DNA of 64,000 nt, taken from positions 86,304,001 through 86,368,000 of the forward strand of contig CM059437.1 in the NCBI GenBank assembly GCA_030390025.1, read 5' to 3'. Both the position numbers and the translations under genes were made by a program. The notes under the pieces were generated by a model. The model saw nothing but the letters and a program-made list of their open reading frames with translations. It made no database searches and had not been told where the DNA came from. Below are positions 13,606 to 53,525 of this stretch, piece by piece (within the stretch, counting starts at the first letter, position 1; every line of letters starts with the position of its first letter). The stretch comes from Squalus acanthias (Eukaryota).

Positions 13606-15624
13606 AACATAAGAACATAAATAGGAGCAGGAGTAGGCCATTCAATAAGATCATGGCTGATCTGATCTTGGCCTCAGCGCCACTTTCCTGCCTGTTCCCC
13701 ATAACCCTTGACTCCCCTGTAGTTCAAAAAGCTGTCTATCTCAACCTTGAATATATTCACTGACTCAGCCTCCACAGCACTCTGGGGTAGAGAATTCCAG
13801 AGATTCACGACCCTCTGAGAGAAGAAATTCCTCCTCATCTCCATCTTAAATGGGTGACCCCTTATCCTGAAACTATGCCCACGAGTTCTAGATTCCCCCA
13901 TGAGGGGAAACATCCTCTCGGCATCTACCCTGTCAAGCTCCATCAGAATCTTATGTTTCAATAAGATCACCTCTCATTCTTCTAAACTCCAATGAGTATA
14001 GGCCCAACCTGCTCAACCTTTCCTCATAAGACAACCCTTTCATCTCAGGAATCAACCTAGTTAAACCTTCTTTGAACTGCCTCCAATGCAAGTATATCCC
14101 TCCTTAAATAAGGAGACCAAAACTGTATGCAGTACTCCAGGTGTGGTCTCATCAATGCCCTGTACAGTTGTAGCAAGACTTCTCTACTTTTATACTCCAT
14201 CCCCCTTGCAATAAAGACCAACATTCCATTTGCCTTCCTAATTACTTGCTGTACCTGCGTGCTAACTTTTTGTGTTTCATGTACGAGGACACCCAGATTC
14301 TTCTGCACCGCAGCATTCTGTAGTCTCTCTCCATTTAAATTATATTTTGTTTTTCTATTCTTCCTACCAAAGTGGATAACCTTACATTTTCCCACATTAT
14401 ACTCCATCAGCCAAATATTTGCCCACTCACTTAACCTAGCTATATCCCTTTGCAGACTCTTTGTGTCCTCCTCACAACATGCTCCCACCTATCTTTGTAT
14501 CGTCAGCAAATCTGGCTACAGTTCACTCGGTCCCTTCATCCAACTGATTAATATAGATTGTAAATAGTTGAGGCCCCAGCACTGATCCCTGTGGCACCCC
14601 ACTAGTTACAGTTTGCCAACCTGAAAATTACCCATTTATCCCGACTCTGTTTTCTGTTAGTTAGCCAATCCTCTATCCATGCTAATATATTACCCCCAAC
14701 ACCGTGAGCTCTTATCTTGTGCAGTAACCTTTTATGTGGCACCTTATCAAATGCCTTTTGGAAATCCAAATACACTACATCTACTGGTTCCCCTTTATCC
14801 ACCCTGCTCGTTACACCCTCTAAGAACTCTAATAAATTTGTCAAACACGATTTCCCTTTCATACAATCAAGCAGAGTCCAAATAGTTTTATGATGATTTT
14901 CTAAATGTCCTGCTACTACTCAGTTAATAATGGATTCCAGCATTTTCCCAATGACAGATGTTAGGCTAACTGGCCTATATTTTCCTGCTTTCTGTCTCCT
15001 TCCTTTCTTGAATATGGGCATTGCATTTGCGGTTTTCCAATCCGCTGGGACCTTTACAGAATCTAGGGAATTTTGGAAGATTACAATCAATGCATCCACT
15101 ATCTCTGCAGCCACTTCTTTTAAGACCCTAGGATGCAGGCCATCAGGCCTAGGGGACCTGTCAGCCTTTAGCCCAATTAGTTTGCCTAGAACTTATTCTC
15201 TTGTGATAGTGATTGTTTTAAGTTCCTCCCTCCCTTTTGCCCCTTGATTATCTATTGTTGGGATGCTTTTAGTGTCTTCTACGATGAAGACAGATACAAA
15301 ATATTTGTTCAAAGTCTCTACCATTTCCTTGTTTCCCATTATTAATTCCCCAGTCTCAACCTCTAAGGGAACAACATTTACTTCAGCTACTCTCTTCCTT
15401 TTTATATACCTGTAGAAGCTCTTACTGTCTGTTTTTATATTTCTTGCTAGTTTACTCTCTCAATCTATTTACTCCTTTCTAATTTTTTTAGTCATCCTTT
15501 GCTGGTTTTTAAAAATTTCCCAATCTTCTGGCCTACCACTAATTTTTGTAACATTGTAAGCCTTTTCTTTCAATTTGATACCATCCTTAACTTCCTTAGT
15601 AAGTTCATCCTTTCTCGTAGAGTC
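13606..15624 (-). mobile_element. CR1-clade LINE, 5'-truncated, about 2 kb
   Basis: Minus-strand ORF pieces: WKTANAMPIFKKG..YRPVSLTS, KSCLTNLLEF..VYLDFQKAFDKVPH, LYRALMRPHLEYC, RRNFFSQRVVNLWNSLP. The 3' tail reads aacataagaacataa on plus at 13606. Confidence 0.95.
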
Positions 15625-22240: not shown

Positions 22241-22522
22241 TAATTAAATAATTTGGGTTCTGTTTGCAATAGTGGAAGTTCATGCAAGAATCAGAGCTGA
22301 ACCACCTGTTTTGGTGGCTATAAACAAGGTATATAACTACCATCGTTTTTGTCATCATAACCTCACTAGTTGGTGCTGGGGTTGCTAAATATGTACAGTA
22401 CTTTTTCCATTTTTTAGCTTCGAGTTCATGTCTTGTAATGTGTGGAGAGCCAAAAAATCTTTTCTTTTTCTCCTTTTTCAGTGCAGGTACTCTGACATTA
22501 AAATGTTACCTTTGTTTTGTAG

Positions 22523-22617
22523 GCAAGCAGGACACCATGAACTAGCAGACCGTTTAGTAGAGATTCAGTATGAACTCACTGATAGACTAGCCTTCTTTCT
22601 CTGTGGAAGGAAACCAG
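22523..22617 (+). CDS. GIT2: GIT2 exon 7 (ankyrin repeat)
   Basis: ttgtag| ... |gtgggt; 95 nt; QAGHHELADRLVEIQYELTDRLAFFLCGRKP. Confidence 0.97.
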
Positions 22618-24749
22618 GTGGGTGTGAAAGAACAGCACTGGAGAATTTAGATTAGTAGTGTTGCTCGCTAATGTTTTATTGAGATGTGCAATTCTAACCA
22701 ATAGTTTCCTCGAGGACTGCTCTAAGGAATGCAACTTGATGCACCATGGAATGTGGGATGCAAGTCTGCACCTGTGATTCCAGCGCTCTGAACTTCTGTT
22801 TTCATTCACGACACTATGGGCAGCTGCCAAATGGAGGCCATGCATTTCCCCCACAGGAAGAAAGGGGCAAAGTAAAGGACCAATTCTTCTATTAAATAAT
22901 TCTACCTCATTTCTATAATGCTGCTCAAGTACAGAGCTTTACAGGGCGGTGGGCAGTGAGTCAATACCATGGAGGAGGAAGAAGGGGAAGACTGAGGTTA
23001 GGAAGGGGAATTAACTACACGAAAGAGTTGAAGAAAAGGGTGTTTAGGAATTGTTTCAAGGCCAGAAGGGGGCGGACGAGGTGCACTTGCGGGCCTTACA
23101 CTCTTATGTATTGAAGTTGTGATAGCCCCACCTCCTGATATCATTGCCTTGTCACCTTTTGCTAGACGAAGAAAAGAAAGGCAACAACACTTAATTCCAG
23201 CTTGGTCAACATCCCACAGTTGAGCAGAAAATAGATGTAGACCCAGAAGTGCATGGGATTGTAAGTCTGCTGATGGTTGCAAGTGAAGGAGAGGCAAACC
23301 ATGTTAACGAGTGCCACTGAGAGAGAACTAATTATTCGGCTTCAAAGTTCGAAACTGTACAAATTGTGAGAAAAATGAGTAATCCACCTCAACTTCAATG
23401 CTTTGTGGAAGAGAGACTTCCTGTTTTAAATGTTCTGATGAAAGGTCATCGACCTGAAACGTCAACTCTCTTTCTCTCTCCACGGATGCTGCCTGGCCTG
23501 CTGAGTTTTTCCAGCGTTTTCTGTTGTTATTCCTGTTTTAAATGTTTTGGTGAAAGACACACTAGGGGATGAATTTCATGAATATGAAGGCCTTGCTTGT
23601 TAGATACATACAATGCAACATCCCCTCCTCCACAGGAGAGGCCAAATACTATGTACAATTTAAGGGATCCTCTGTGAACTCTCCATTTACACAATAGTCA
23701 ATATGCTGCATGGATATTAGCCAATGAGAGAGTCTTACTGCCTCCCATTCCTACATTACAACAGTGACTACACTTCAAAAAGTACTTCATTGGCTGTAAA
23801 GCGCTTTGAGACACCCAGTAGTCGTGAAAGGTGCTATATAAATGCAAGTCTTTCTTTATTCATGCTAATATGTTTTCTCTGTATTTGAATATTCATTAAT
23901 TTATTTTTTCTGTGCTCACCCTTTGCAGAATGTTTATATATTTGCAGGCGCTGAACAGGTTGTGTGTAACTGGTTTTAACCAACATGACACACAAATTCA
24001 TAATGGGTTTGGAATTTTCATTGCAATTGTGGTTTTGGGAGTAGCTTGACTCGTGCTTATGAGTGTAGTAACTTTAAATAAGCTAAGGTTCCTCTTTATG
24101 TGCTGCTTGTATGTCATGTCCAATGGTGTCTGCTAGGTAGGGGTGTCCATTACATTGTTTTACTGATTCTGGTTCTGACCTCCCTGGACACACAGATAAC
24201 TGTAAAGACCAATGCAAGATTGGCAGGTTCTCCCATAGATTGCCCATTTAAAACAGCCACCAAATCCGAACCTTCCTGAATGTGTTGCATGCACTACTCT
24301 TTCGACTCACTTTTCACTATTTGACATTCATCTTTCAAAGCATTGTGATCCTTGAAATGTTGCAATGCGCAACATTAATTGAGTGCCAACTCTTCAAACT
24401 TGTCTATCCAATGATGTACTTCTCAAGGTTCAGTTTTAAGGTATCCTTGAAGTATTTATATTACGCTCAATGGGATAACTTCACTTCCTCAATTAGAGTA
24501 GAGTACCTTCTTCGTTAGCAATTCCAGATCATAGATGGTAATGATGGATGTGTGCTGCGGGACATGTCCCCCAATCCAGACTAGTTGTAAAATCTGTGAG
24601 GGTGTACCGCATACTGGTGAGATTGACAGCATCTGATTTGGTTACTTGGTTATTGCTTTTCATAATTTTGCATTTGTGCTCAAATTTATTATGCCGGCTG
24701 TACATTTGTTTAAACTGTACTGCAACTCAACTGTCTCCTTCCATTCCAG

Positions 24750-24795
24750 ATCACAAGAATGGGCAGCACTTCATAATTCCCCAGATGGCTGATAG
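24750..24795 (+). CDS. GIT2: GIT2 exon 8
   Basis: ttccag| ... |gtgagg; 46 nt; (D)HKNGQHFIIPQMAD(S). Confidence 0.96.
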
Positions 24796-25164
24796 GTGAG
24801 GCGGAGAGATTTTTGTTTATTGTGACAAAGTCCAAATTGGTACTTGGCTGCTAGAGCGAGTGTGTGCCTTTGTTCATTGCTCTCAGCTCTCCGTTTGCGA
24901 GGATGGTCTTGGTGCCTCTAAAAGGTGATGCACCAGCCAATGCTTATAGCAGGCTAATCGCGTTAACACCAGCACGCCCACTATAAGTGGTGGGAACTGT
25001 AGCTTAAGGGTTACAGCTGGTTGGGCATAGAGTAAAGCCTTGCAACAAATAGTAAAGCTATGAGATCACAATATTTAATTTAAAAATCTGACGTCTCTAT
25101 GTGCACTCTAAGTTTTCTTATTATTAATTCCTATGTCTACATTTAAACTTGTCAGGCTGTAATT

Positions 25165-25510
25165 ACACCCTCCTGTTGCCACTTATAGCTCCTCTAGACC
25201 CATCTTTTGTTTCTTGTCCCATTACCACTGCCTGTTGACTTGCACCATCATCCCTTTTGTTATTTAATAAGTCCTGCCCTATCACAGACCTTCCCTTTTC
25301 TTCTTCTTTCCTCCCCTCCACCCCCCCTTTCCCCTGTCTGTGTACTTGCTTATAAGCTGTTAAATCTCTTAACTTCTTCCAGTTCAGATGAAACGTCATC
25401 GACCTGAAACGTTAAGCTTGTTTCTCTCTCCACAGATGCTGCCTGACCTACTGAGTATTTCCAGCATTTTCTGTTTTTTGTTTCCGATTTCCAGCATCTA
25501 CAGTATTTTG
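25165..25510 (+). mobile_element. Retroelement terminal fragment (Penelope-like; class tentative)
   Basis: tcatcgacctgaaacgttaa..tctctctccacagatgctgcctgacct..tttccagcattttctgttt. Further copies lie at 23430-23530 (+), 26746-27060 (-), 27277-27322 (-) and 35674-35860. Confidence 0.65.
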
Positions 25511-25740
25511 TGATTGCACCCTCCCCTGTAGAGGCGCTCCAGCGCCACTACTTGGTAGGATGATGTAATTACACCATGACAAGTGAATATGCAGTTGCCA
25601 TTATAAATGCAGAGATTGGAATTTAATGGCAATATAAAATTAAGGACAAAATATTTGCCTTCAAAATGGAGACTGAATTATGTCTACACACCCTGATCCA
25701 AATATTCCCTGGCCTCTAACACCCACATTATTTAAACACT

Positions 25741-26730
25741 ACTATTTACAATCAATATTAATGACTTGGATGAAGGGACCGAGTGTACTGTAGCCAAATT
25801 TGCTGCTGATACAAAGATAGGTGGGAAAGCAAGTTGTGAGGAGGACACAAAAGAGTCTGCAAAGGGATATAGATAGGTTAAGTGAGTGGCCAAAAATTTG
25901 GCAGATGGAGTATAATGTGGGGAAAATGTGAGGTTATCCACTTTGGTACGAAGAATAAAAAAGCAAATTATTATTTAAATGGAGACAGACTACAAATGCT
26001 GCGGTACAGAGGGATCTGGGTGTCCTCGTACATGAAATACAAAAAGTTAGCATGCAGGTACAGCAAGTAATTAGGAAGGCAAATGGAATGTTGGCCTTTA
26101 TTGCAAGGGGTGTGGAGTATAAAAGTAGGGAAATCTTGCTACAACTGTACAGGGCGCTGGTGAAAACACATCTGGAGTACTGCGTGCAGTTTCGGTCTCC
26201 TTATTTAAGGATGGATATACTTGCATTGGAGGCAGTTCAGAGAAGGTTCACGAGGTTGATTCCTGAGATGAAGGGGTTATCTTATGAAGAAAAGTTGAGC
26301 AGGTTGGGCCTATACTCATTGAAGTTTAGAAGAATGAGAGGGGATCTTATTGAAACATATAAGATTCTGATGGGGCTTGACAGGGTCGATGCAGAGAGGA
26401 TGTTTCCCCTCGTGGGGGAATCTAGAACTAGTGGGCATAGTTTCAGAATAAGGGGTCGCCCATTTAAAACAGAGATGAGGAGGAATTTCTTCTGAGGGTT
26501 GTGAATCTTTGGAATTCTCTACCCCAGAGAGCTGTGGAGGTGGAGTCATTGAATATATTCAAGGCGGAGAAAGACAGATATTTGAGCAACAGGGGAGTCG
26601 AGGGTTATGGGGAACGGGCGGGAAAGTTGAGTTGAGGCCAAGATCAGATCAGCCATGATCTTATTGAATGGCGGAGCAGGCTCGAGGGGCCAAATGGCCC
26701 ACTCCTGCTCCTATTTCTTATGTTCTTATA
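25741..26730 (+). mobile_element. CR1-clade LINE, 5'-truncated, about 1 kb
   Basis: LFTININDL..KFAADTK; ORF 26052-26495 (QLYRALVKTHLEYC...RRMRGDLIETYKI); tail atttcttatgttcttat. Confidence 0.95.
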
Positions 26731-26745
26731 CACTTGGTCTTGATT

Positions 26746-27060
26746 CAAAAGCAAAATACTGCAGATGCTGGAAATCTAATGAAAACAAAGAATGCTGGTA
26801 AACCCTCAGCAGGTGTGGAGAGAGAAACAGAGTTAACATTTCAGGTTGATGACCTTTCGTCAGAACTGGAAGACGTTGGAGATTAACAGTTGTCAAGCAA
26901 ATAGAGATGGGGGGAGGGCAGGGAAAAAAGAAATGGGGAAGGTCTGTGATGGGGTGGAGGGCAGGAGTGATTGGTGCAACCAAAAGGGGGTGACAATGGG
27001 ACAAGTAACAAAAGATGGATGCAGAGGAGGTGTAAATGGTTACAGTAGAATAGCCGAGGG
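26746..27060 (-). mobile_element. Retroelement terminal fragment (same family as 25165-25510, inverted)
   Basis: gcaaaatactgcagatgctggaaatc..tgtggagagagaaacagagttaacatttcaggttgatgacc is the reverse complement of the 25380-25510 motif. Confidence 0.7.
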
Positions 27061-27679
27061 GAGGGAAGAGTGGAAAATCTGGCAAAGTGGGGATGACTCC
27101 CGTGGCCCAGGAACTTGATCTTGATTCCCCGAATTTAGTGTCACAGAAGAGCAACTAGTATGAGTCAAATTTACTGGTGGAGTTGTACGTTTTATTCTTT
27201 TGAATTGATGAGTCACTCTTAGATATGTGGAAGGTGTTTGATTTTGTGCAGTCGAAGATCATGCTTTGAATGGGAAATAAAAACAGAAAATGCTGTTTCA
27301 GGTCGATGACCTTTCTTCAGAATGCTTTGGATGGGAATATGCTTGTATTTTTTTTAAACTATAGCTGTGGTGCACTTGCGCTGTACTGACACTGTGGGAA
27401 TTTAAATATTTGTGGCTCCGTTTCATTGTGTTGACCATTTGTTCAATATAGTTTTACTTTGAATTGTAAGCCGTATATTCCATTTCAACTTCAGGTTGTT
27501 TCGCACTGTATATTATTGCTTTTATTCTGATACCCTTACCCCTGAAAACAATGTTGGTTCTGTTCTTTCATTGAACTAATGATACACCAGTGGTTGCCAC
27601 CTGCTGGATTATTGAGTTCCTACAGCTGAATTACAAAGCTGAGAAAGAAACGGCCAAGTACGCTAGTTGTAGATGTTTC

Positions 27680-29400
27680 ATTATTTTCCTTTCTTCTAGT
27701 TTTCTTCCTTCCTCTCCCGAAGGCAATGATTCCTTGCTGAGGTCAGTCACTGCCTGATATCTCAGCCAAATGGCCATTTGTCAAGCATGAATCTAGACAG
27801 TGATGGGAAGTTGTTCAGCAGTTGTGTCCTCACTAAGTCCACATACGTGCACTTCCAGTGAGTGTAGTTGGATAGCGCTCATGAGAGTGACCTTTATATT
27901 TTATATGCTCTAAGCACAATTTAGCACGTTACTTATTGAAGGAGCAAAACAATATTCTTTGGGGAAGTATTTATAATAAAGTACTTACCCCACTATGTAT
28001 TAGCTTTTGTTAGAAAAATCTTCTAAACACGAGAAGTTAGTCACTGGCACTGCAGTACCTATATCATTGGGCCCAGGTAATAGCAATACTTAGTATTGCA
28101 TTAGTTAATGGCTTACACTTTGGATCAGCAGGCTGACTGCATCTGTTGCTGATGTCAGCTGAGCACGTGTGAGGATCACAACCTGATCAAAAATGTCCGT
28201 CAGTCTTGTGCTACCAATATCTCTCAACATTTATGGTCTTCACCCCTATTTTTCTTGATCCTCAAATTACTGGCACTGGTTGGCAGCCCTCCACCACCTC
28301 GCCCATGTGGTTATTCTTTATATGTGAGCTTTGATTACATTTGCCAGCAGACTGTTCAACTGTGGGATATGCACCAGTGAAACCAATTCTGTTCTCTCCC
28401 AACGTCTCTGCAGAAACATTTTCTAGAAGAAATCACGAGATCAGAAGTGGGGAAACTTGTATGGATTTCTCCACCTGCTCCTCGGCATTGAGGTGCTGAG
28501 ACCATTTGCTGCCCTCACTGAGATTAGCTAACTCAACCCAGCCCAGAAACCCAACTTGAGACATCCTGGTTTATATGGCTTAGTGCTACACCAGGACTTG
28601 CATTTGCAGTGCTTTTAATAAAAAGGTACCTTGTACATTAAGTGAGAAGAAAAATCAGTAGTATTTTGGGTAAAGGGCAGCTGAGATACTCCAAGATACC
28701 TGTTGCATTATCTTTAGGGTAAATGCATATTGAAATTATACAGAAGATATCGAAAGAAACTCATTCAACATGAATAGTGAGGCCTTCCTGACAAAAATCC
28801 TATAATTGTGGAACATATCATGTGTACACTGTTATCTGAACCCTTGCTTTGGATACATTCTGAGGTTTTGCATAGTTTTTTTTCAGATAAGCTCTCCCAC
28901 TGGAACGGTACCATCCAAATTTATACACTCTGTACTATTGACGCCAGCCGACAGGAAGGAAGGGAGGGAGGGTTTTAATGAGAACTGTTATTAAGTGTCA
29001 CACTCCTGTCTTTATGTATGTATATATACTCAACTGTCTTCTCTCTTCCTTCTTCCTCCTTCACCAGATTTCTGCTGGGGTACAGTATCGCACACATCAG
29101 CAATTCTCTGGTACCTCAGCAAGTGGCCATTCTTCATCTATGAGCTCAGACATTTTATGTTAACGGACTATTTGGCCGCTGAAAGCACCACAGGCAGCCT
29201 TGAGCTTGTCTTCACCCACTCTCCAGCAGGTGTCACTGGATAGCAGCTGGGAGTGGGGACCCTGGTTAATTTCTCTCCCCTCGCCCCCCCCCCCCCCCCC
29301 GCTCCCAAGGCTTTGCGGCCATTTGCAACATGCCACCCTGGTTGAGATCAGATAGTTTTACACAGACTTATGATCAAAGGTCGACTTCCTTAGTCAGTAT
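27680..29400 (-). mobile_element. Cluster of three SINE family A copies (about 27680-27890, 28240-28600, 29040-29400)
   Basis: Recurrent cctca/g.ccaagtggccatt, gtcactggatagc and gagat.agctaactca motifs. Confidence 0.65.
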
Positions 29401-29669
29401 TGCTCAACATCCTTAAGTCAGTATTGCTCAATTCCATGCTACATCTTGTACTTACCAGCTGAATATTGGGGCCAAATGACATTTTTATGGTGAAATGTGT
29501 CTACAAAGTATGCAGGAGTTATTCAAAATAAATCGGAGATCAGCATATAAGTTTGATTTCATGCCGTTGGTGCTTCAGCCATGTTATTAAGTGTTTGTAA
29601 TCTTATTGTATAGACTAATCAATAAATATCTTTGCACTTCTTTCTTGAATGCAACTCTTGGGATAAAAG

Positions 29670-29675
29670 GCACCT
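29670..29675 (+). CDS. GIT2: Candidate 6-nt GIT2 microexon (GCACCT)
   Basis: Branch-point-like ctaat at 29615, then an AG-free pyrimidine/TGC stretch, first AG at 29668-69, then GCACCT|gtaagt. It is frame-preserving in the phase-2 intron (ADSSLDL becomes ADRHLSLDL). There is no transcript evidence here. Confidence 0.6.
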
Positions 29676-30400
29676 GTAAGTAATGCATAACAAAATAGCT
29701 CCTTCTCGGCCTGATAGTTGAAGATCAGTGTTATATGTGCTAGGATACTTCTTTTAAAACTGAAATGTCATTGTTACAGTACGGTATGTTGTGAGCCTGA
29801 TGTTTAACCTGAGCCTATGACCCTAACCTCAAATTTTGTCATTGTGGTGATTGAACTTTCTTGAGTTGGATTAAAGATCAGGCATCTCAGCCTAATGAGA
29901 ATGTGATGATCTGTTTAGCCACTGACTGTCTGCTTTGCACTGATGATATCAGACATTGTTTTGAAGGTTGCTGATACGCAGCACTTTTATATTAAGAACC
30001 AAATGAGCACGCAGCACACTAAAGTATTCACTTAAAATTCTGAACTAGTATAGTATCATATGCTAGATCAGTGTTGCCATATTGACGCACGTATAGCCCA
30101 CCTCTGCATATTAGCTGCACCCCAAACTGGATCCCCCCCTTGCCACCAGGAAAAGTTATTACGATATACACAACCCACACCTCTAAATTTAGACTTTTTT
30201 TAAAATATGGCCTTACAGTAATTTTTTTTGTCACAGGCCACATCGCAAGCACTTGATGGCCATTCTCAGCAATGCTCCAACACATGACACCATGGAGGGA
30301 TAGGCTGGCCCTTCGATTTCCCTTAAGTTGAGCTCCTGGGGCAATGCTTGGAGCAGCAGCTCTGTTGACTGCCACAGTGACAGATGAGATGGGTCACAAG

Positions 30401-30563
30401 CAATGTTCCCTTTAATTTTTTTTTTGGGTGTGTGGCCCTTTTAACAGGCTGCATGGCCCATTCAAATTTCCGCGGATGTGCGGTTTTTCCATTCAAAAGC
30501 CGGTGACCGGCCTGCGCGGAACCTCCAGAGTGCTGGCAGCCACGCAGCTTAATGGCAACATTG
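30401..30563. mobile_element. hAT-type MITE
   Basis: TIRs CAATGTTCCCTTTAA / TTAATGGCAACATTG (13/15); 8-bp TSD gtcacaag / gccacaag (7/8). Confidence 0.8.
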
Positions 30564-31155
30564 GCCACAAGTACTGCCTCCAGCAGCCCATATTATGAGT
30601 AACACTGTCCTGGATGAGCTTGTGACTTCATGGGATCTCTGGTTGTCATAGCAATCAAGACACCAAATCACAGCATTGAAGACCATCAAATATAACTCAG
30701 CAATAATATAAAATATTGCATCCTTGTGATATTGTTGCATTTGATTTGGGAGGAAGAATTGGGTCTGTACCACAGGACTGTTGTCCCTTTGAGGACACCG
30801 GAATCACACTGGGGTACAATTCCAAGAGTGTAGCACTCCACAGTTGCTCCAGCTGAGATAAGCTAATAGATCAGAAAATCAGAGATCTAACCTGGGATGT
30901 TCCTCGCCTATATGGTTCTGTACCAAACCAGGCTGTGAACTTGTACACTGAGCCGTCTGGGAGTATCACCTTACTTTTTCTTGAACAATGCCCACTTCAT
31001 AGCTTTAAATGGCTTCATGACTTAACCAAGTTTGCCAAAACCTGCTGGCTGCACTGGTTTGGAAATCACTATCACAGAAAACCGTTTAAAATATCATGCT
31101 GCTCATTGTTTATGTTACTTCATTAATAATGGTGTTCTTTATCCTCTGTCTTCAG

Positions 31156-31207
31156 CAGTTTAGATTTGTCAGAACTCGCGAAGGCAGCAAAGAAAAAGCT
31201 TCAGTCA
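31156..31207 (+). CDS. GIT2: GIT2 exon 9 (NAGNAG acceptor)
   Basis: ttcag|cag ... |gtaagt; 52 nt; (S)SLDLSELAKAAKKKLQS. Confidence 0.96.
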
Positions 31208-31854
31208 GTAAGTTTTCTTGGCCTAACTGATGTGTCTTGTGGCAGAATATAAAACTGGCATACCAAGAGCCTGAATTTGAATCCTAGCCTCAAAAATATT
31301 ATACTAACGGGCCTATTGCACGTATGTTTGGGAAGATTTGGTTTCCTGTGCACGTTCCTCATCAAGAACTACGTATCCTCATTCACACTGCACTCCGTAT
31401 CCTGCAGATCAGGTTCCCAGTGAATGCAAATGGATCCTCGAGAAGCTGGTTGAAAATGTTTAATTACTTCGCACATTGCGCAGCGAGAACTAGAAGTGCC
31501 TGGTGCTCGGTAATATGTGCAATTTTAGTGCTGCATTTACCATTTGGCCTGATCAGTTTTCCTGCTGATGGTGTCACAGTGATCATATTTAGATCGTTAC
31601 ATATTTTCTCTTTCACTTTGTGGTGCATAATGTGAAGACCTTGATAAGTACTGGATAGAAGGGATTTCAACTTCTACCAGACATAATTCCAAACAGGATA
31701 TGTATGTCGAACAACGTATTTAAAAGTAACTCCACCATCCGCCTCTCCCTCCCTTCTTCCACAGAACCATCGAGATCTCGCCGTGGGTGGAAATAGAAGT
31801 AGTCATAATTCCACCTTCCCATAGCCAGTTCCTCAGGACTGGTCCAGTAGTCAT

Positions 31855-32180
31855 GAATACTGATGTAGTGCTTTTCTTTCACATTCATCAGGTGCTCATT
31901 GATGCCTTTTTGGCAGGTTATTTAATTTCACGAATCTGATTGCACAAGTCCTGCGCCAGTAGTGACAGTGCCTCATCTGCCTGGCTGTACCAGAAGAATG
32001 TGTAGCTGGCATCATGTCCACAGTTACTTCTCTCTAGCCCAGCTGGTCTCACTCTGTGCAGGAATGTTAGTGTCATGGTGAGCCAGTTCTTGTGTCACCA
32101 AGGCAGTTTTCCACTCTGGCCCTTTCTGTATCATCTTTCATCAAGAAGCGTTATGATATTCCAGGAAACCAGAGTCATGA
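31855..32180 (-). mobile_element. RTE-clade LINE remnant (N-terminal AP endonuclease)
   Basis: Manual translation across frameshifts gives MTLVSWNIITLLD / PEWKTALVTQELAHHDTNIPAQSET / DASYTFFW / NLPK-GINEHLM. This follows the RTE endonuclease pattern WNVRTLLD..PERRTALVARELARY.IDIAALSET..YTFFW..LP.GINDRLM. Confidence 0.75.
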
Positions 32181-33213
32181 TTTTTTTATTGCATGCTTTA
32201 TGACCAAAGTGTAAAAAGTGGCCTATATCCATAGTTAGATGGTCTGGCTTGACTGTCAAGAGGCCGGAATTGTTGCCACCTTTTCTAGCCTATTCCCTGT
32301 GTGGGGTGATGAGTGCAAACGTTAAAGAAGATCGCTTAGTCATTTGGGATGTGCCCCAGGCAACCAATCACTTGCATTCAGGTTTGCAGGTATGGCTCCA
32401 ACATCACCACGTCTGTTAGTTCACCACTCGGATAGCATTGTCGGGCCTCTATCTCCTCCTCCAGTAAAAAAAAAAGAAAATGGGTTTTAGTGAAATTAGT
32501 TTGCACTGAGCCATTAGTACACTCATCCCTCAGTTTGTGCTGCCAAGACAGGGAGGTTGACAAACTTTAAATGCAGTCTGTGAGGTTTGACACAGAATCT
32601 CTAAGCCCACTTCACCTTGTGGTATAGCAGTAGGCGCTGTTGTAGCTGGGGTCTGCGGATTCTCTATTTCCGTAGCCTTAAATTTCAGCCCCGATGCAGG
32701 ATGGTCAGATTGTGCATGGGTGGTGACCAATTTCTCCCAACCATTTCTGCTGTTTAACATGCCTCTTACCATTTGACCTTCCCAGCATGGATGATGTCAT
32801 TGGCAGCAAGGCTACCATTGGTATTGCTCTTCAAGTTAGGAGGCACACAAACTCCTTCCCTACACTTAGATTGCAGTCAAAAAGGTGAGGGAGGGAACGA
32901 TATGGAGATTTTGCTGGAAGCCAACCAGGAAGATTTCTTGCCAATTTCTTTTTTCGTAAGTCTTGGGAAAGATGAACTTGGAAGGAGTTAAACCAATCGT
33001 GATCTTTTAACTTAATATGTCTAGGTTCTTTTATTCAGTTCACAATTCCTTTTCATACTTCAAGCCTTTTTCAAACTGCCTCTCTGTAGTTTAATGTAGA
33101 ATGTATATTAAGTAGCATCTTAAACATTCTCAAAGCACTGTGAATGGTTTATGTAGTTGCACCTTAGTTACATTTTATCTCTGGAGTAGTAACATGTTCT
33201 TTCTGCTTTCTAG

Positions 33214-33286
33214 TTAAGTAATCACTTATTTGAGGAACTAGCTATGGATGTATATGATGAAGTAGATCGAAGGGAGACTGATGCAG
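33214..33286 (+). CDS. GIT2: GIT2 exon 10 (Spa2-homology domain repeat 1)
   Basis: ttctag| ... |gtgagg; 73 nt; LSNHLFEELAMDVYDEVDRRETDA. Confidence 0.97.
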
Positions 33287-35462
33287 GTGAGGATTGAGCT
33301 GTTAAGTGTAATCCAATATTGTGATACTTTAGCAATCTTGCTTGCTGTTCTGAAAAGGGAGTTCTGTTTTAGATAATCTATGCAAAATTCCCCTTGGCTC
33401 TTTTTAAAAAAAAAAGTTCACAGGTCTTTCTCATAGCCTGCTTGTTTTCTCAGAGCACAGCACGTCAAAGTTGTGGGGGAAGCAACCCAGTAGAAATGAT
33501 ACCAGAGCATCGGCGCCTCAACTTAGAACCTCCAATTTTTAGCTAACCTTTACTCCGAGCCTAAATCTTGTTCCTGGAGGATGAGTTTGCTGGTTTTAGC
33601 TGGGTCCGATGGGATAGGGCACCAGTTTTGGCTAAGGGGTCTTCTTTGTACTAACTGATCATGTCCCCTTGCAGGACAAACTAAAAATAAATTGACCTCT
33701 GTGGAAGAATGAAAAAAGTGCATTTATATTCTGCATAATTATTTCTCTTGCAAATGTGTCGAAGCATTTTGCATGCAGTGAATTTGTTTGTAATAAGGTG
33801 CCTGTGGCTATCTAAGCAACTGTAGCAGCCATTTTACGCAATAAACCACAATAAGATGAATGATCGTTTAACCTGGTTTTGTTGGTTGAGGGAGGAATGC
33901 TGGGCCAAGTCCCCAGGTTGGGATGTGTGAGTGAGCGAGAATATCTCCAATTTGATTGCTCACAGTAAGTCAGTGTAAACAGTCTTAGTTTGTAGTGTTG
34001 TCAGGTTCTCTCTGTGTGCCTGTCCTGTTTTGCCATTTGTCAATTCCCTATTCCACTCATTGCCACATCATGTAATAGAGTAATTAAAGTTGGTGCCCAG
34101 CAGTAAGTTGGAAACCATAATTATAAAGTGATCTGGAGTCTGAGATGCATTGAACCTGTGTCTACTAATGCTGTGTACATCTTCGTGCTCTATGCTGCCC
34201 ATTTCTGCATGACCACGTTATCCCAGCCATCTATGTATTGCCAAGACTTTGTGCTTCCCCACACCCTACAGCATTTATCTCTCCACTGACCATAGTATGG
34301 TAAGTAAGCTGGTTCCCAACACTAAGTTGAGAACCAGTAACTTATTTTTAAAGTGCTTATAATGCCAAAAACAATTCATTCGTTTCCAACTTAGTGAGGA
34401 AGTGAGATGGAGGGCCAGAGGTAAAGTTGCGAAGATGGTTAGTAGGAGCAGTGGAGGCTGGAGTCATGGGCAGCAGCTATCCAGAAGAGCGTGGTTGGCT
34501 CCAGCAAGAAGAGTGGGATCAGTAAAGTGGGGTGGAGGGGGGCCAGCAGCAATGTCAAAGTTACAGGCTGGTTGGGGCCTCTATCACTGTGTGCACATGG
34601 AGATGGCACTTTCAGGATAAGCTGGGTGGGGGCGCGGGGGATAGAGACTTAATTTGGAACAGTAGCATGGTTTGGGATGGCTGTCGGAGCATCAAGAGGA
34701 CACTTCCCCCTTTTTGAGGTGGAGAGAATGTACAGGTGGGAGAGCGTGGGCCTTGTAGAGATTCAGGTGGAGGGGAGCTGATGTATGGAGGAACTCCCAG
34801 TAGAGTTCGGGATCACTCAACTATTGCAACAGTAGAGCTGGGTGACTTGTGCAACAAGTGTTGGGAGGACTAAATACAAGCATTAGTGTTGCCTATTATA
34901 ATCCTGTTACACTAGGTATTATCAATGTTACAAAAGCATTACTATATTCTGACAACAGGAAATAGGTGTGACAGAGGAAAATTTAGGAATTTATATATTT
35001 ATTTATATTATTTAAGTAGCTTTCTAGATAACATGCATTTTCATGGATGTGAAGACACCTTCTTCATTCTGGTATAATGGGCACATAGTTGCACAAGGGA
35101 CCACAACAATAGTATCTTAAGTCACAAGTAAGCTGATTTATTAGTCGCTTTAATTTCTGTGACATGATCAGAACTCAAATCACATTAAATCTTGCAAGAG
35201 ATGGGTTAAAAATTAATTTATAATTTCCAATATAGTTAACATCCCTTTGCATTGATAGTGCTGGAGTGAGAGAAAGGAAAGCATGGTTTTATAGATCAGC
35301 TACTTTACAATTACGGAATCTACTTGGAATAGTCTCTGGATTTGGTTTTTGTACACTGAGATGCAATGATAAATATAGGCCAGAGTGGTTGCCTTGAGTT
35401 TCTATATTTTTTGCACACAACTGGATAAAAGTGTTCGAGTTAACTGATTTTTCTATGCACAG

Positions 35463-35560
35463 TTTGGCTGACAACTCAAAACCACAGCACCCTGGTAACT
35501 GAGACAACAGTCATTCCCTTCCTTCCTGTGAATCCAGAGTATTCGTCAACTAGGAATCAG
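35463..35560 (+). CDS. GIT2: GIT2 exon 11 (ends at a GC donor)
   Basis: gcacag| ... CAG|gcaagt; 98 nt; (V)WLTTQNHSTLVTETTVIPFLPVNPEYSSTRNQ. Confidence 0.95.
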
Positions 35561-35909
35561 GCAAGTTTTCAATAAATGCTTTGTTGCTGCAAGCACTGTA
35601 AAAGGGAGGAACTAGTCGGACAAATTGTCACATCATCTAGTTGATGTTATCTGTATGCTTACTTGTATCATTAAAAATAGAAAGTGTTAATGCAGCGCAA
35701 GTAAATCAGCTTGTGAAAGAGAAGAAATAGGTTAGCATTTAGAGTGGAGACCCTTTGTCAGTTCTACGAAAAGTCTCCACCTGTAATGTTAACCTGTCTT
35801 TCCAGATATTGCTGGATCTGCTGTGCATTACCAGCATTTTCTGTTTTAGATTTTCAGTATTAAGTGTTCCTTTTATCTCTAGTCTTCTGTTGCTAGGTTT
35901 TATACTTTT

Positions 35910-36067: not shown

Positions 36068-37516
36068 CCTGCAGATTGGAGGGTGGCAAATGTAACCCCA
36101 CTATTTAAAAAAGGAGGGAGAGAGAAAACAAGGAACTACAGACCGGTTAGCCTAACACTACAATGCTAGAGTCTATTATAAAGGATGTGATAACGGGACA
36201 CTTAGAAAATATTAACGGGATTAAACAAAGTCAACATGGATTTATGAAAGGGAAATCGTGTTTGACAAACCTACTGGAGTTTTTTGAGGATGTAACTGGT
36301 AGAATAGATAAGGGAGAACCAGTGGATGTGGTGTATTTGGATTTTCAAGAAGGCCTTTGATAAAGTCCCACATAAGAGGTTAGTGTGCAAAATTAAAGCA
36401 CATGGAATTGGGGGTAATATACTGGCATGGATTGAAAATTGGTTAACAGACAAGAAACAGAGAGTAGGAATAAATGGGTCTTTTCGGGGTGACAGGTGGT
36501 GACTAGTGAGGTACCGCAGGGATCAGTGCTTGGGCCCCAGCTATTCACAATATATATCAATGATTTGGATGAGGGAACCAAATGTAATATTTCCAAGTTT
36601 GCTGACGACATGAAACTAGGTGGGATTGTGAGTTGTGAGGAGGATGCAAAGAGGCTTCAAGGCGATTTAGACAAGTTGAGTGAGTGGGCAAATACATGGC
36701 AGATGCAGTATAACGTGGATAAATGTGAAGTTATCCACTTCGGTAGGAAAAACAGAAAGGCAGAGTATTATTTAAATGGTGATAGATTGGGAAATGTTGA
36801 TGTACAAAGGGACCTGGGTGTCCTTGTACACCAGTCACTGAAAGCAAACATGCAGGTGCAGCAAGCAGTTAGGAAGGCAAATGGTATGTTGGCCCTCATT
36901 GCAAGAGGATTTGAGTACAGGAGCAAGGATGTCTTACTACAGTTATACAGGGCCTTGGTGAGACCACACCTGGAGTACTGTGCAGTTTTGGTCTCCTTAC
37001 CTAAGAAAGGATATACTTGCCATAGAGGGAGTGCAGCGAAGGTTCACCAGACTGATTCCTGGGATGGCAGGACTGTCGTATGAGGAGAGATTGGGTCGAC
37101 TAGGCCTGTATTCACTAGAGTTTAGAAGAATGAGAGGGGATCTCATTGAAACATATAAAATTCTGACAGGGCTAGACAGACTGGATGCAGGGAGGATGTT
37201 TCCCCTGGCTGGGGGGTCTAGAACCAGGGGTCACAGTCTCAGGATACGTGGTAGGACATTTAGGACTGAGATGAGGAGAAATTTCTTCACTGAGGGTGGT
37301 GAACCTGTGGAATTCTCTACCACAGAAGGCTGTGGCGGCCAAGTCACTGAATATATTTAAGAAGGAAATATAGATTTCTAGACACAAAAGGCATCAAGGG
37401 GTATGGGGAGAGAGCGGGAATCTGGTATTAAGATAGAGGATCAGCCATGATCATATTGAATGGCGGCGCAGGCTCGAAGGGCTGAATGGCCTACTCCTGC
37501 TCCTATTTTTCTATGT
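36068..37516 (+). mobile_element. CR1-clade LINE, 5'-truncated, about 1.45 kb
   Basis: ORF pieces [64 protein letters not shown]; CR1 3' tail ggcctactcctgctcctatt. Confidence 0.96.
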
Positions 37517-45754: not shown

Positions 45755-45904
45755 AGCATGGACTCTGATCTGTCAGACGGACCAATTACATTACAGGAAT
45801 ACATGGAGGTGAAAAATGCACTCAGCGCTTCCGAGGCAAAGATACAGCAGCTGATGAAAGTGAACAGCAACCTGAGCGATGAGCTGCGTTTGATGCAGAA
45901 AAAA
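45755..45904 (+). CDS. GIT2: GIT2 exon 14 (coiled coil)
   Basis: ttgtag| ... |gtaaga; 150 nt, phase 0-0; SMDSDLSDGPITLQEYMEVKNALSASEAKIQQLMKVNSNLSDELRLMQKK. Confidence 0.97.
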
Positions 45905-46671
45905 GTAAGAATGACTTTTTCAGACACTTCTTGAAGAGTTCAATGTGCTTTGTAGCCAAGGGTCAAGGATAACTTTCCTGAGTTAGAGAACTGGGATCCC
46001 AATGATGTTTCTTGGAGCTTTGTGGATTACTTAAATATGCATTCCATATTCCTTTGCCTCTATCTATTTTTTTGTGGGGGGGAGGGTGTTTGCGGATTTT
46101 TATCCTAAATGCAACACCAAATATTAAAACTCTGAACTGTACCTCACTACACTTCAGATTTCTCTCATTTCTTTTTCATATTTCATTTTTGTTTCTGTTT
46201 TCTTGTTGATTTGGAGCTGAACTGGTATCGGTAACATTTTTGGCCATCTTTATACCTTTTGCAAAAGAGATAAAAATGCGATGCTCTTTTGCTTCTCCCC
46301 CTCTCCCCCAATATCGCCATTTTTTTTTCTGTACCACACATGGCTTGAGGGTGGCTGGCTTAGTGAAAATTAGGTTAGTTATAGTCATATTTTAAGGCTC
46401 CAACTACAGTACTTGAATATTATTTTGTGTCTGAAACCATCTAGTACTTCAATTGCAGAGGACAATTGCAATGGCTTTTGCTGGCTATCTTCATAGTGCA
46501 ACACACTCAAGCTGGAATCATTGTTGTTTTCCATCTCTGCACCTTTTCCAGTCACATTGTCCTTTCTGAGGTGGGTGGGGGACCAAAACTGAACATGTTA
46601 CTCCAAATTAGATCTTAGAAACGTCTTGTATAACCCTATTACAGTATTGTGGTCCTAGTTTTGTATTGAAT

Positions 46672-52893: not shown

Positions 52894-53525
52894 GTAAGTA
52901 AATCGCCGTCAGCTCTGGTAAGCAACTTGTGCTTTTTTTTTCTCCTTTCCCTCTTTGTCCTAAATTCTGATTTTCTTTTCCAACTTACAAAACATTGTCT
53001 TGTGGTTTCTGTTCCTTTCTTCTATTACTCTTGCTTTTTATTACAAAACTAAGATTTAAAACAAACTTATTGAAAAATGCCTAATTGAATAAAAATGACA
53101 CCTAGAGCATGTTAACCTTTTGCCCGTAAACCTTGTTCCTTTTAAATGTTATTATTCCAAGACTGTTGTGCTAACATCATCATCACATTTGAATTGCAAG
53201 GGAATAAGGCCTAATAGACCTTCACCTAAACTTTTTAACTTGATTCAACCAAATGTCAATAGAGGAAGAAAGAAAATGCCTGCTTGAAGCACTAGATGGC
53301 ATACAAGTATTGTACATTGAGTTGAAATCATGAAGGTCTTATTAATCGTGTCCTTGAAACAAGCAGGTTATTTTGGCAGGTCAAAGTTAAGCTTCCCCAT
53401 GATGGTTCAGTTTGCATATGCACCACAAGGGGTGGTATTGAGCCAAAAGACCAGAAATATCTCCAATTCTATGCCTGGTCTGTGCCAAGTTAGCTGATCT
53501 CGGCCAAGTCATCAGTTGGAGTGGT

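What the first reader, a model, noticed from the sequence alone, without database searches (positions are those of the whole stretch)
29610..29690. Candidate 6-nt neural-type microexon between exons 8 and 9
Seen: gactaatc (branch-point-like, 29613-20), then about 48 nt without any AG that contain pyrimidine runs and two TGC motifs (about 29633 and 29650), then aaag|GCACCT|gtaagt with a consensus donor. Inclusion keeps the frame and converts ...MADSSLDL to ...MADRHLSLDL, just upstream of the Spa2-homology (PIX-binding) domain. Known: SRRM3/4-dependent neural microexons have UGC motifs shortly upstream of the 3' splice site and strong donors. The paralogue GIT1 has a 27-nt (9-aa) alternative microexon at this junction. 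Inference: an ancient regulated microexon that gene predictors would probably miss.
Basis: partly seen in the sequence, partly recalled or inferred. Interest (0 to 1): 0.75.

Follow-up and report, generated by a model that had tools for sequence, protein, structure and literature searches.

The report
Known six-base GIT2 neural microexon
This six-base stretch in a shark GIT2 gene matches a two-residue insertion found in GIT2 proteins from sharks to mammals, and its human, mouse and zebrafish counterparts are already published as nerve-cell exons controlled by the splicing factors SRRM3/4, so it is likely the same known exon and not a new discovery.

Summary
The 6-nt exon (29670-29675) lies in intron 8 of a shark GIT2, keeps the frame and turns MADSSLDL into MADRHLSLDL. 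Annotated GIT2 isoforms carry a +2 insertion at this junction in sharks and a skate (RHL, RLL), gar (RHV), teleosts (RNI), and turtles, birds and mammals (RRL, RWL). Published tables list a 6-nt GIT2 exon as brain-specific in human (PMC4317164), Srrm3/4-dependent in mouse (MmuEX0020453, PMC8797185), and neural and srrm3/4-dependent in zebrafish (DreEX0034907; PSI 88 neural, 51 endocrine pancreas, 0-10 elsewhere; human orthologue HsaEX0027514; PMC12626424). Inclusion in this shark was not shown: the read-laying run was swamped by repeats. The insertion falls in the ANK-SHD loop, away from the PIX interface; its effect on the protein is untested in what I searched. This genome's GIT1 has its 27-nt counterpart at the same junction. 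The scan's index holds no GIT2 finding, but has the same outcome for other genes.

The parts
24750..24795 (+). GIT2 exon 8 (46 nt), ends in phase 2 (..AG) after the codons for MAD
   Evidence: tblastn of shark GIT2 proteins, 100% identity over residues 239-254; boundaries
29615..29619 (+). Branch-point-like CURAY motif, predicted branch A at 29618 (-52)
   Evidence: sequence; use as branch point is inferred
29614..29667 (+). AG-free zone of 54 nt with a pyrimidine run set back from the acceptor (only 8 of the 20 nt before the AG are pyrimidines)
29633..29635 (+). UGC motif at -37
   Evidence: function untested
29650..29652 (+). UGC motif at -20, likely the SRRM3/4-responsive one (lies between pyrimidine run and AG; GIT1's sits at -19)
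   Evidence: function inferred
29670..29675 (+). 6-nt microexon; inclusion replaces Ser255 by Arg-His-Leu
   Evidence: same RHL insertion in annotated bamboo shark and thorny skate isoforms
29676..29681 (+). Consensus donor gtaagt
31156..31207 (+). GIT2 exon 9 with tandem (NAGNAG) acceptors at 31156 and 31159, adding or omitting one Ser
   Evidence: both forms are in annotated proteins and in the mouse VastDB coordinates

Best explanation
[quoted passage not shown] Shown by sequence: distant branch-point motif, long AG-free zone, UGC motifs, weak AAG acceptor, consensus donor, frame kept. Shown in other species (published tables): neural inclusion and SRRM3/4 dependence. Inferred for this shark: the weak acceptor is skipped by default; SRRM3/4 recruited at the UGC near -20 promotes early spliceosome assembly; the exon is joined to either tandem acceptor of exon 9. 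Inferred for the protein (about 35-40%): the longer loop fine-tunes the closed/open, paxillin-binding switch of GIT2 or a loop-binding partner, not PIX binding itself, as suggested by the neighbouring aromatic residue that holds GIT1 closed and by the effect of the GIT1 microexon on focal-adhesion stability.
For: Junction forms among stored proteins: 138 of 342 carry a +2 or +1 insertion beginning with Arg (RRL 108, RHL 15, RNI 6, RLL 5, RWL 3, RHV 1). This count is enriched by design: one search ranked 5594 hits by score to an insertion-bearing query and all 120 listed carry it; in the unbiased-for-this-junction search 7 of 120 do. [quoted passage not shown] Mouse: MmuEX0020453, 6 nt, group eMICdep, with two downstream acceptors 3 nt apart as here (PMC8797185 Table S2; definition). 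Zebrafish: git2a DreEX0034907, 6 nt, PSI neural 88.2, endocrine pancreas 50.8, nine other tissues with values 0-9.9; rises from 0 in eggs to 76-79 at 5-7 days; dPSI -62 on srrm3/4 loss; human orthologue HsaEX0027514 dPSI neural 73, on eMIC expression 96 (PMC12626424 supplements; column meaning taken from the figure legend). Cis-features match those described for the class, and shark orthologues of such exons respond to SRRM4 in human cells as a class. Loop position: S255/S256 lie between ANK and SHD, away from the PIX interface (bioRxiv 2019.12.18.881771; 6JMT carries Ala-Ala there). GIT1 Y246, between ankyrin repeats and SHD, is needed for the closed state and not for PIX binding (PMC3974724); the matching Phe247 here is 8 residues before the insertion (equivalence judged).
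Against: No RNA evidence of inclusion in this species was obtained. 20 of 23 cartilaginous-fish species, the chimaera among them, show no insertion in the models listed. The middle residue varies (H, L, N, R, W), and the Arg follows from the phase-2 junction whenever the exon starts with a purine, so sequence constraint on the peptide is weak. DNA-level conservation of the intron across species could not be tested. That the published human, mouse and zebrafish 6-nt exons lie at this junction is inferred from the protein insertions and the tandem acceptor, not from a DNA alignment. Most single-microexon deletions in zebrafish gave no phenotype (PMC12626424 passage; git2a does not occur in that main text).
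Confidence: 0.9

Rival explanations
1. The exon is real but in this shark is not neural or not SRRM3/4-dependent (constitutively low, or driven by other factors).
For: No tissue data for this species (searches give none). UGC is neither necessary nor sufficient for the response. In zebrafish the paralogous git1 exon is neural yet barely changed on srrm3/4 loss (dPSI -0.73), so regulation of a conserved exon can differ by lineage.
Against: The git2 exon is neural and eMIC-dependent in the three species with data, and this copy has the full cis-signature.
Confidence: 0.07
2. A chance look-alike or a decayed, unused exon.
For: The strict signature arises about 0.2 times per 64-kb strand by chance; the acceptor is weak; most listed shark models lack the insertion.
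Against: It encodes exactly the RHL insertion annotated in bamboo shark and thorny skate and is the only such candidate in the intron; all signals are intact.
Confidence: 0.03
3. Protein-level rival: the insertion works by creating a basophilic kinase site (Arg at -3 to the retained Ser, R-x-hydrophobic-S-L), switched further by the tandem acceptor that adds or omits that Ser.
For: 134 of 138 insertion-bearing proteins keep the Ser three residues after the Arg; the residue before it is always L, V or I; mammals, birds and turtles have RRLS, which resembles a PKA consensus (recalled, not tested).
Against: The Arg is a by-product of the junction; the second basic residue is missing in sharks, gar, teleosts and toothed whales; no phosphorylation data were found or tested.
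Confidence: 0.2
4. Protein-level rival: the two residues have little measurable effect on GIT2 function.
For: Surface loop that tolerates an Ala-Ala substitution; variable middle residue; Git2-null mice learn normally (bioRxiv 538223 abstract and passages); most microexon deletions in zebrafish are mild.
Against: Length, frame and neural regulation have been kept across jawed vertebrates; the GIT1 microexon at the same junction changes focal-adhesion stability (PMC6317919).
Confidence: 0.3

Closest known systems
VastDB GIT2 6-nt microexon: human HsaEX0027514, mouse MmuEX0020453, zebrafish git2a DreEX0034907
   Same: Same gene, 6 nt, in frame; tandem downstream acceptor as in mouse; +2 residues at the MAD|S junction in annotated proteins
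   Different: Peptide RHL here against RRL (mammals) and RNI (teleost models seen); flanking introns 4874 and 1480 nt here against about 125 and 820 nt in mouse and about 1150 and 130 nt in zebrafish (from the coordinates); regulation not measured in this shark
RefSeq GIT2a isoforms of Chiloscyllium plagiosum (e.g. X1, XP_043571437.1) and Amblyraja radiata (e.g. X10, XP_032899653.1)
   Same: Identical RHL insertion at the same junction
   Different: Other species; these are predicted models with no tissue information
GIT1 27-nt (9-aa) SRRM4-regulated microexon (GIT1-A; HsaEX0027507, MmuEX0020446)
   Same: Same junction and phase, similar cis-layout in this genome (branch motif -44, TGC -19, AG-free 55 nt, tandem downstream acceptor)
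   Different: 27 nt against 6 nt, non-consensus donor in the shark copy, and a functional study exists for GIT1 (PMC6317919) but none was found for GIT2

Membership tests
SRRM3/4 (eMIC)-dependent neural microexon | Length 3-27 nt, usually frame-preserving | tested here: met
   6 nt, no stop, frame kept
SRRM3/4 (eMIC)-dependent neural microexon | UGC between branch point and AG | tested here: met
   TGC at -37 and -20; feature described
SRRM3/4 (eMIC)-dependent neural microexon | Distant branch point, long AG-free zone, pyrimidine tract set back from a weak acceptor | tested here: met
   CURAY at -52 (median 45-47 nt for neural microexons, 34 for the comparison class, PMC12871342); AG-free 54 nt; 8 of last 20 nt pyrimidines. 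Motif match only, no branch-point model run
SRRM3/4 (eMIC)-dependent neural microexon | Strong 5' splice site | tested here: met
   gtaagt matches the intronic consensus at +1 to +6; exon side ends in CCT. No MaxEnt score computed
SRRM3/4 (eMIC)-dependent neural microexon | Neural-enriched inclusion in this species | tested here: inconclusive
   Four runs laid as contigs, tissues not on record, joint table dominated by repeats and cut. Met for the orthologues in published tables
SRRM3/4 (eMIC)-dependent neural microexon | Inclusion depends on SRRM3/4 | not testable with these tools
   Needs perturbation; listed as dependent in mouse, zebrafish and human
Orthologue of the VastDB GIT2 6-nt exon | Same gene, same junction, same length and phase | tested here: met
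   Gene identity 93-100% to shark GIT2a exons; same +2 insertion across vertebrates; tandem acceptor as in the mouse event
Orthologue of the VastDB GIT2 6-nt exon | Conserved flanking intron sequence across species | not testable with these tools
   No other vertebrate genome is held for this window

The most novel reading that the evidence does not exclude
The GIT1 27-nt and GIT2 6-nt exons descend from one neural microexon older than the GIT1/GIT2 duplication, and in GIT2 the exon acts with the tandem acceptor as a two-step switch that builds a neuron-specific Arg-x-hydrophobic-Ser phosphorylation site in the loop that governs the closed/open state of the scaffold.
Probability: 0.12. Interest if true: 0.45.

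Novelty: already known. Interest (0 to 1): 0.14.

Why it matters
It does not change what is known: the exon, its neural inclusion and its SRRM3/4 dependence are catalogued in human, mouse and zebrafish. The open point is what two residues in the ANK-SHD loop do to GIT2; I found no study of it (searches; main-text or supplement look-ups).

Tried and rejected
RNA evidence: one search listed 13 runs, none on record as RNA (no RNA holder listed; no evidence either way). Four of them laid on 22400-35700 showed a spliced exon 10-11 joint in all four, so spliced GIT2 RNA is in them, but repeats in intron 8 filled the tables (175 joints not shown) and no exon 8-9 joint of either kind was displayed; one 338-nt unspliced contig spans the microexon without differences. 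Inconclusive. Structure prediction: the model of the included form had pLDDT under 50 over residues 226-426, so it was not used; the model of the skipped form had not finished at my last try. RNA structure: 29600-29700 folds less well than shuffles (z +1.24, 183 of 200 fold at least as well), so no structural element is claimed. Common origin of the GIT1 and GIT2 microexons from their acceptor sequences: they share a TGCA-n3-CTTGG layout, and 145 of 5000 shuffles reached the local alignment score of 24, but the 8 pairs of constitutive paralogous acceptors scored 17-30 on the same measure; suggestive at best. A search for lamprey or invertebrate GIT relatives was not run, so the age of the exon beyond jawed vertebrates is open; fly and mouse share only four eMIC exons and Git is not among those named. 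RBFOX motif: the only TGCATG in the intron is 775 nt downstream; not claimed. Supplement look-ups with no hit: PMC7821500 (8 files, gene names), PMC12868881 (1 file); main text of PMC13759335 and PMC6724607 hold nothing on this exon.

Full report
What is there. The window lies in a 3.7-Gb genome (G000:C13) and holds, on the + strand, most coding exons of a GIT2 gene whose closest listed relatives are shark GIT2a proteins (99% identity over an 83-residue exon; exon map by tblastn). Exon 8 ends in phase 2 and exon 9 has two acceptors 3 nt apart, so four junctions are possible: MADSSLDL, MADSLDL, MADRHLSLDL and MADRHLLDL.

Chance. In the 6.36-kb intron it is the only in-frame, stop-free candidate with an AG-free zone of 25 nt or more. 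A stricter signature, defined after seeing the feature, hits only this site in the window's two strands, against 0.2 per 64-kb strand in 100 simulations, 17 of which had a hit. The looser scan gave 11 candidates in the longer GIT1 stretch and missed the true exon there. The signature is therefore a fair lead, not proof.

Conservation. Annotated proteins settle the matter. In the first search, made with an unrelated exon, 7 of 120 proteins carry an insertion at this junction: RHL in Chiloscyllium plagiosum and Amblyraja radiata, RLL in Scyliorhinus canicula. A search with the insertion-bearing region ranked 5594 hits; all 120 listed carry a +2 insertion: RRL in mammals, birds and turtles, RWL in three toothed whales, RNI in six teleosts, RHV in gar, RHL in shark and skate. 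That list is selected for the insertion and gives range, not frequency. Of 84 further cluster members 5 carry it. In all 138 of 342 stored proteins have it, 134 with the following Ser and 4 without. Among cartilaginous fish only 3 of 23 species show it in the models listed (hand count; lists were cut), and none of the 16 chimaera entries shows the two-residue form, so many annotations do miss it, or lacked neural RNA.

What is published. Human: a 6-nt GIT2 exon is in Supplemental File 2 of PMC4317164 (row seen; file list), which the text describes as the 145 brain-specific micro-exons (passages). Mouse: MmuEX0020453, 6 nt, with two downstream acceptors 3 nt apart, is classed eMIC-dependent from Srrm3/4 knock-down and Srrm4 knock-out data (PMC8797185, supplement row; passages; section 13). 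Zebrafish: git2a DreEX0034907, 6 nt, PSI 88 in neural tissue, 51 in endocrine pancreas, 0-10 in the nine other tissues with values, rising through development, dPSI -62 on srrm3/4 loss; human orthologue HsaEX0027514, dPSI 73 neural and 96 on eMIC expression (PMC12626424, supplement rows; passages). That these exons lie at the same junction as ours is inferred from the protein insertions and the tandem acceptor. The cis-features agree with the class as described in PMC12871342 (passages), PMC8797185 and bioRxiv 2024.09.17.613571 (passages and section 10; its supplements are closed and may include this exon).

RNA from this animal. No listed run is on record as RNA. Four runs laid as contigs show a spliced exon 10-11 joint, but repeats crowded out the tables and no exon 8-9 joint was displayed. 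Inclusion in this species is thus inferred only.

The paralogue. The genome's GIT1 (G000:C25) has a 27-nt exon at 14129095-14129069 (-) at the same junction and phase, with a branch motif at -44, TGC at -19, 55 nt without AG and a tandem downstream acceptor. The human GIT1 9-aa microexon is SRRM4-regulated and its inclusion stabilises focal adhesions in prostate cancer cells (PMC6317919, passages). A shared ancestor of the two exons is plausible, but their acceptor similarity does not exceed that of constitutive paralogous acceptors.

How it most likely works. Splicing (about 0.9): the weak acceptor is skipped by default, SRRM3/4 acting through the UGC near -20 promotes inclusion in neurons and islet-type cells; shown for orthologues, inferred here. 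Protein: the insertion replaces Ser255 by three residues. [quoted passage not shown] A direct effect on PIX binding is therefore unlikely. The aromatic residue 8 positions upstream corresponds to GIT1 Y246, needed for the closed, paxillin-binding-incompetent state and not for PIX binding (PMC3974724, passages). My best guess (35-40%) is a fine-tuning of that switch or of a loop-binding partner; little effect (30%) and a new basophilic phosphorylation site (20%; consensus recalled) are the rivals. The structure prediction was too poor in this region to help. A study of brain GIT2 splicing looked at downstream regions and, in the passages seen, not at this exon (bioRxiv 538223).

Verdict. Observation confirmed, interpretation supported, novelty none: this is the shark copy of a catalogued SRRM3/4-dependent microexon. 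The scan's own index has no GIT2 entry but reached the same kind of verdict for microexons in other genes; nothing was noted nearby. Interest 0.14.

Noticed in passing
G000:C25:14129095-14129069 (-), within L006: 27-nt GIT1 microexon of this genome, same junction and phase as the GIT2 one, with TGC at -19 and a branch motif at -44 but a non-consensus donor (gtattt); its exon 9 also has tandem acceptors.
   Followed up: partly
window 31153-31158: Tandem NAGNAG acceptor of exon 9 adds or omits one Ser; both forms are in annotated proteins of many species and in the mouse event, and the arrangement is shared with GIT1.
   Followed up: yes
window 52894-52917: A second donor 24 nt downstream extends this exon by eight residues (VSKSPSAL); the same extension is in three annotated great white shark isoforms and a similar one in four bamboo shark isoforms.
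   Followed up: partly
window 45755-45910: Exon with two starts in the tblastn map (about 45755 and 45794), matching annotated isoforms with and without 13-14 residues.
   Followed up: no
window 25959-26730 (also about 13674-15192 and 36493-37360): Fragments of a high-copy repeat with reverse-transcriptase-like reading frames (CR1/LINE type; label recalled, not tested); they drew nearly all laid contigs.
   Followed up: no
PMC12626424 supplement, git1 DreEX0034900: The zebrafish git1 microexon is neural but nearly unchanged on srrm3/4 loss (dPSI -0.73) and is included in muscle and immune samples (PSI about 45), unlike git2a.
   Followed up: no
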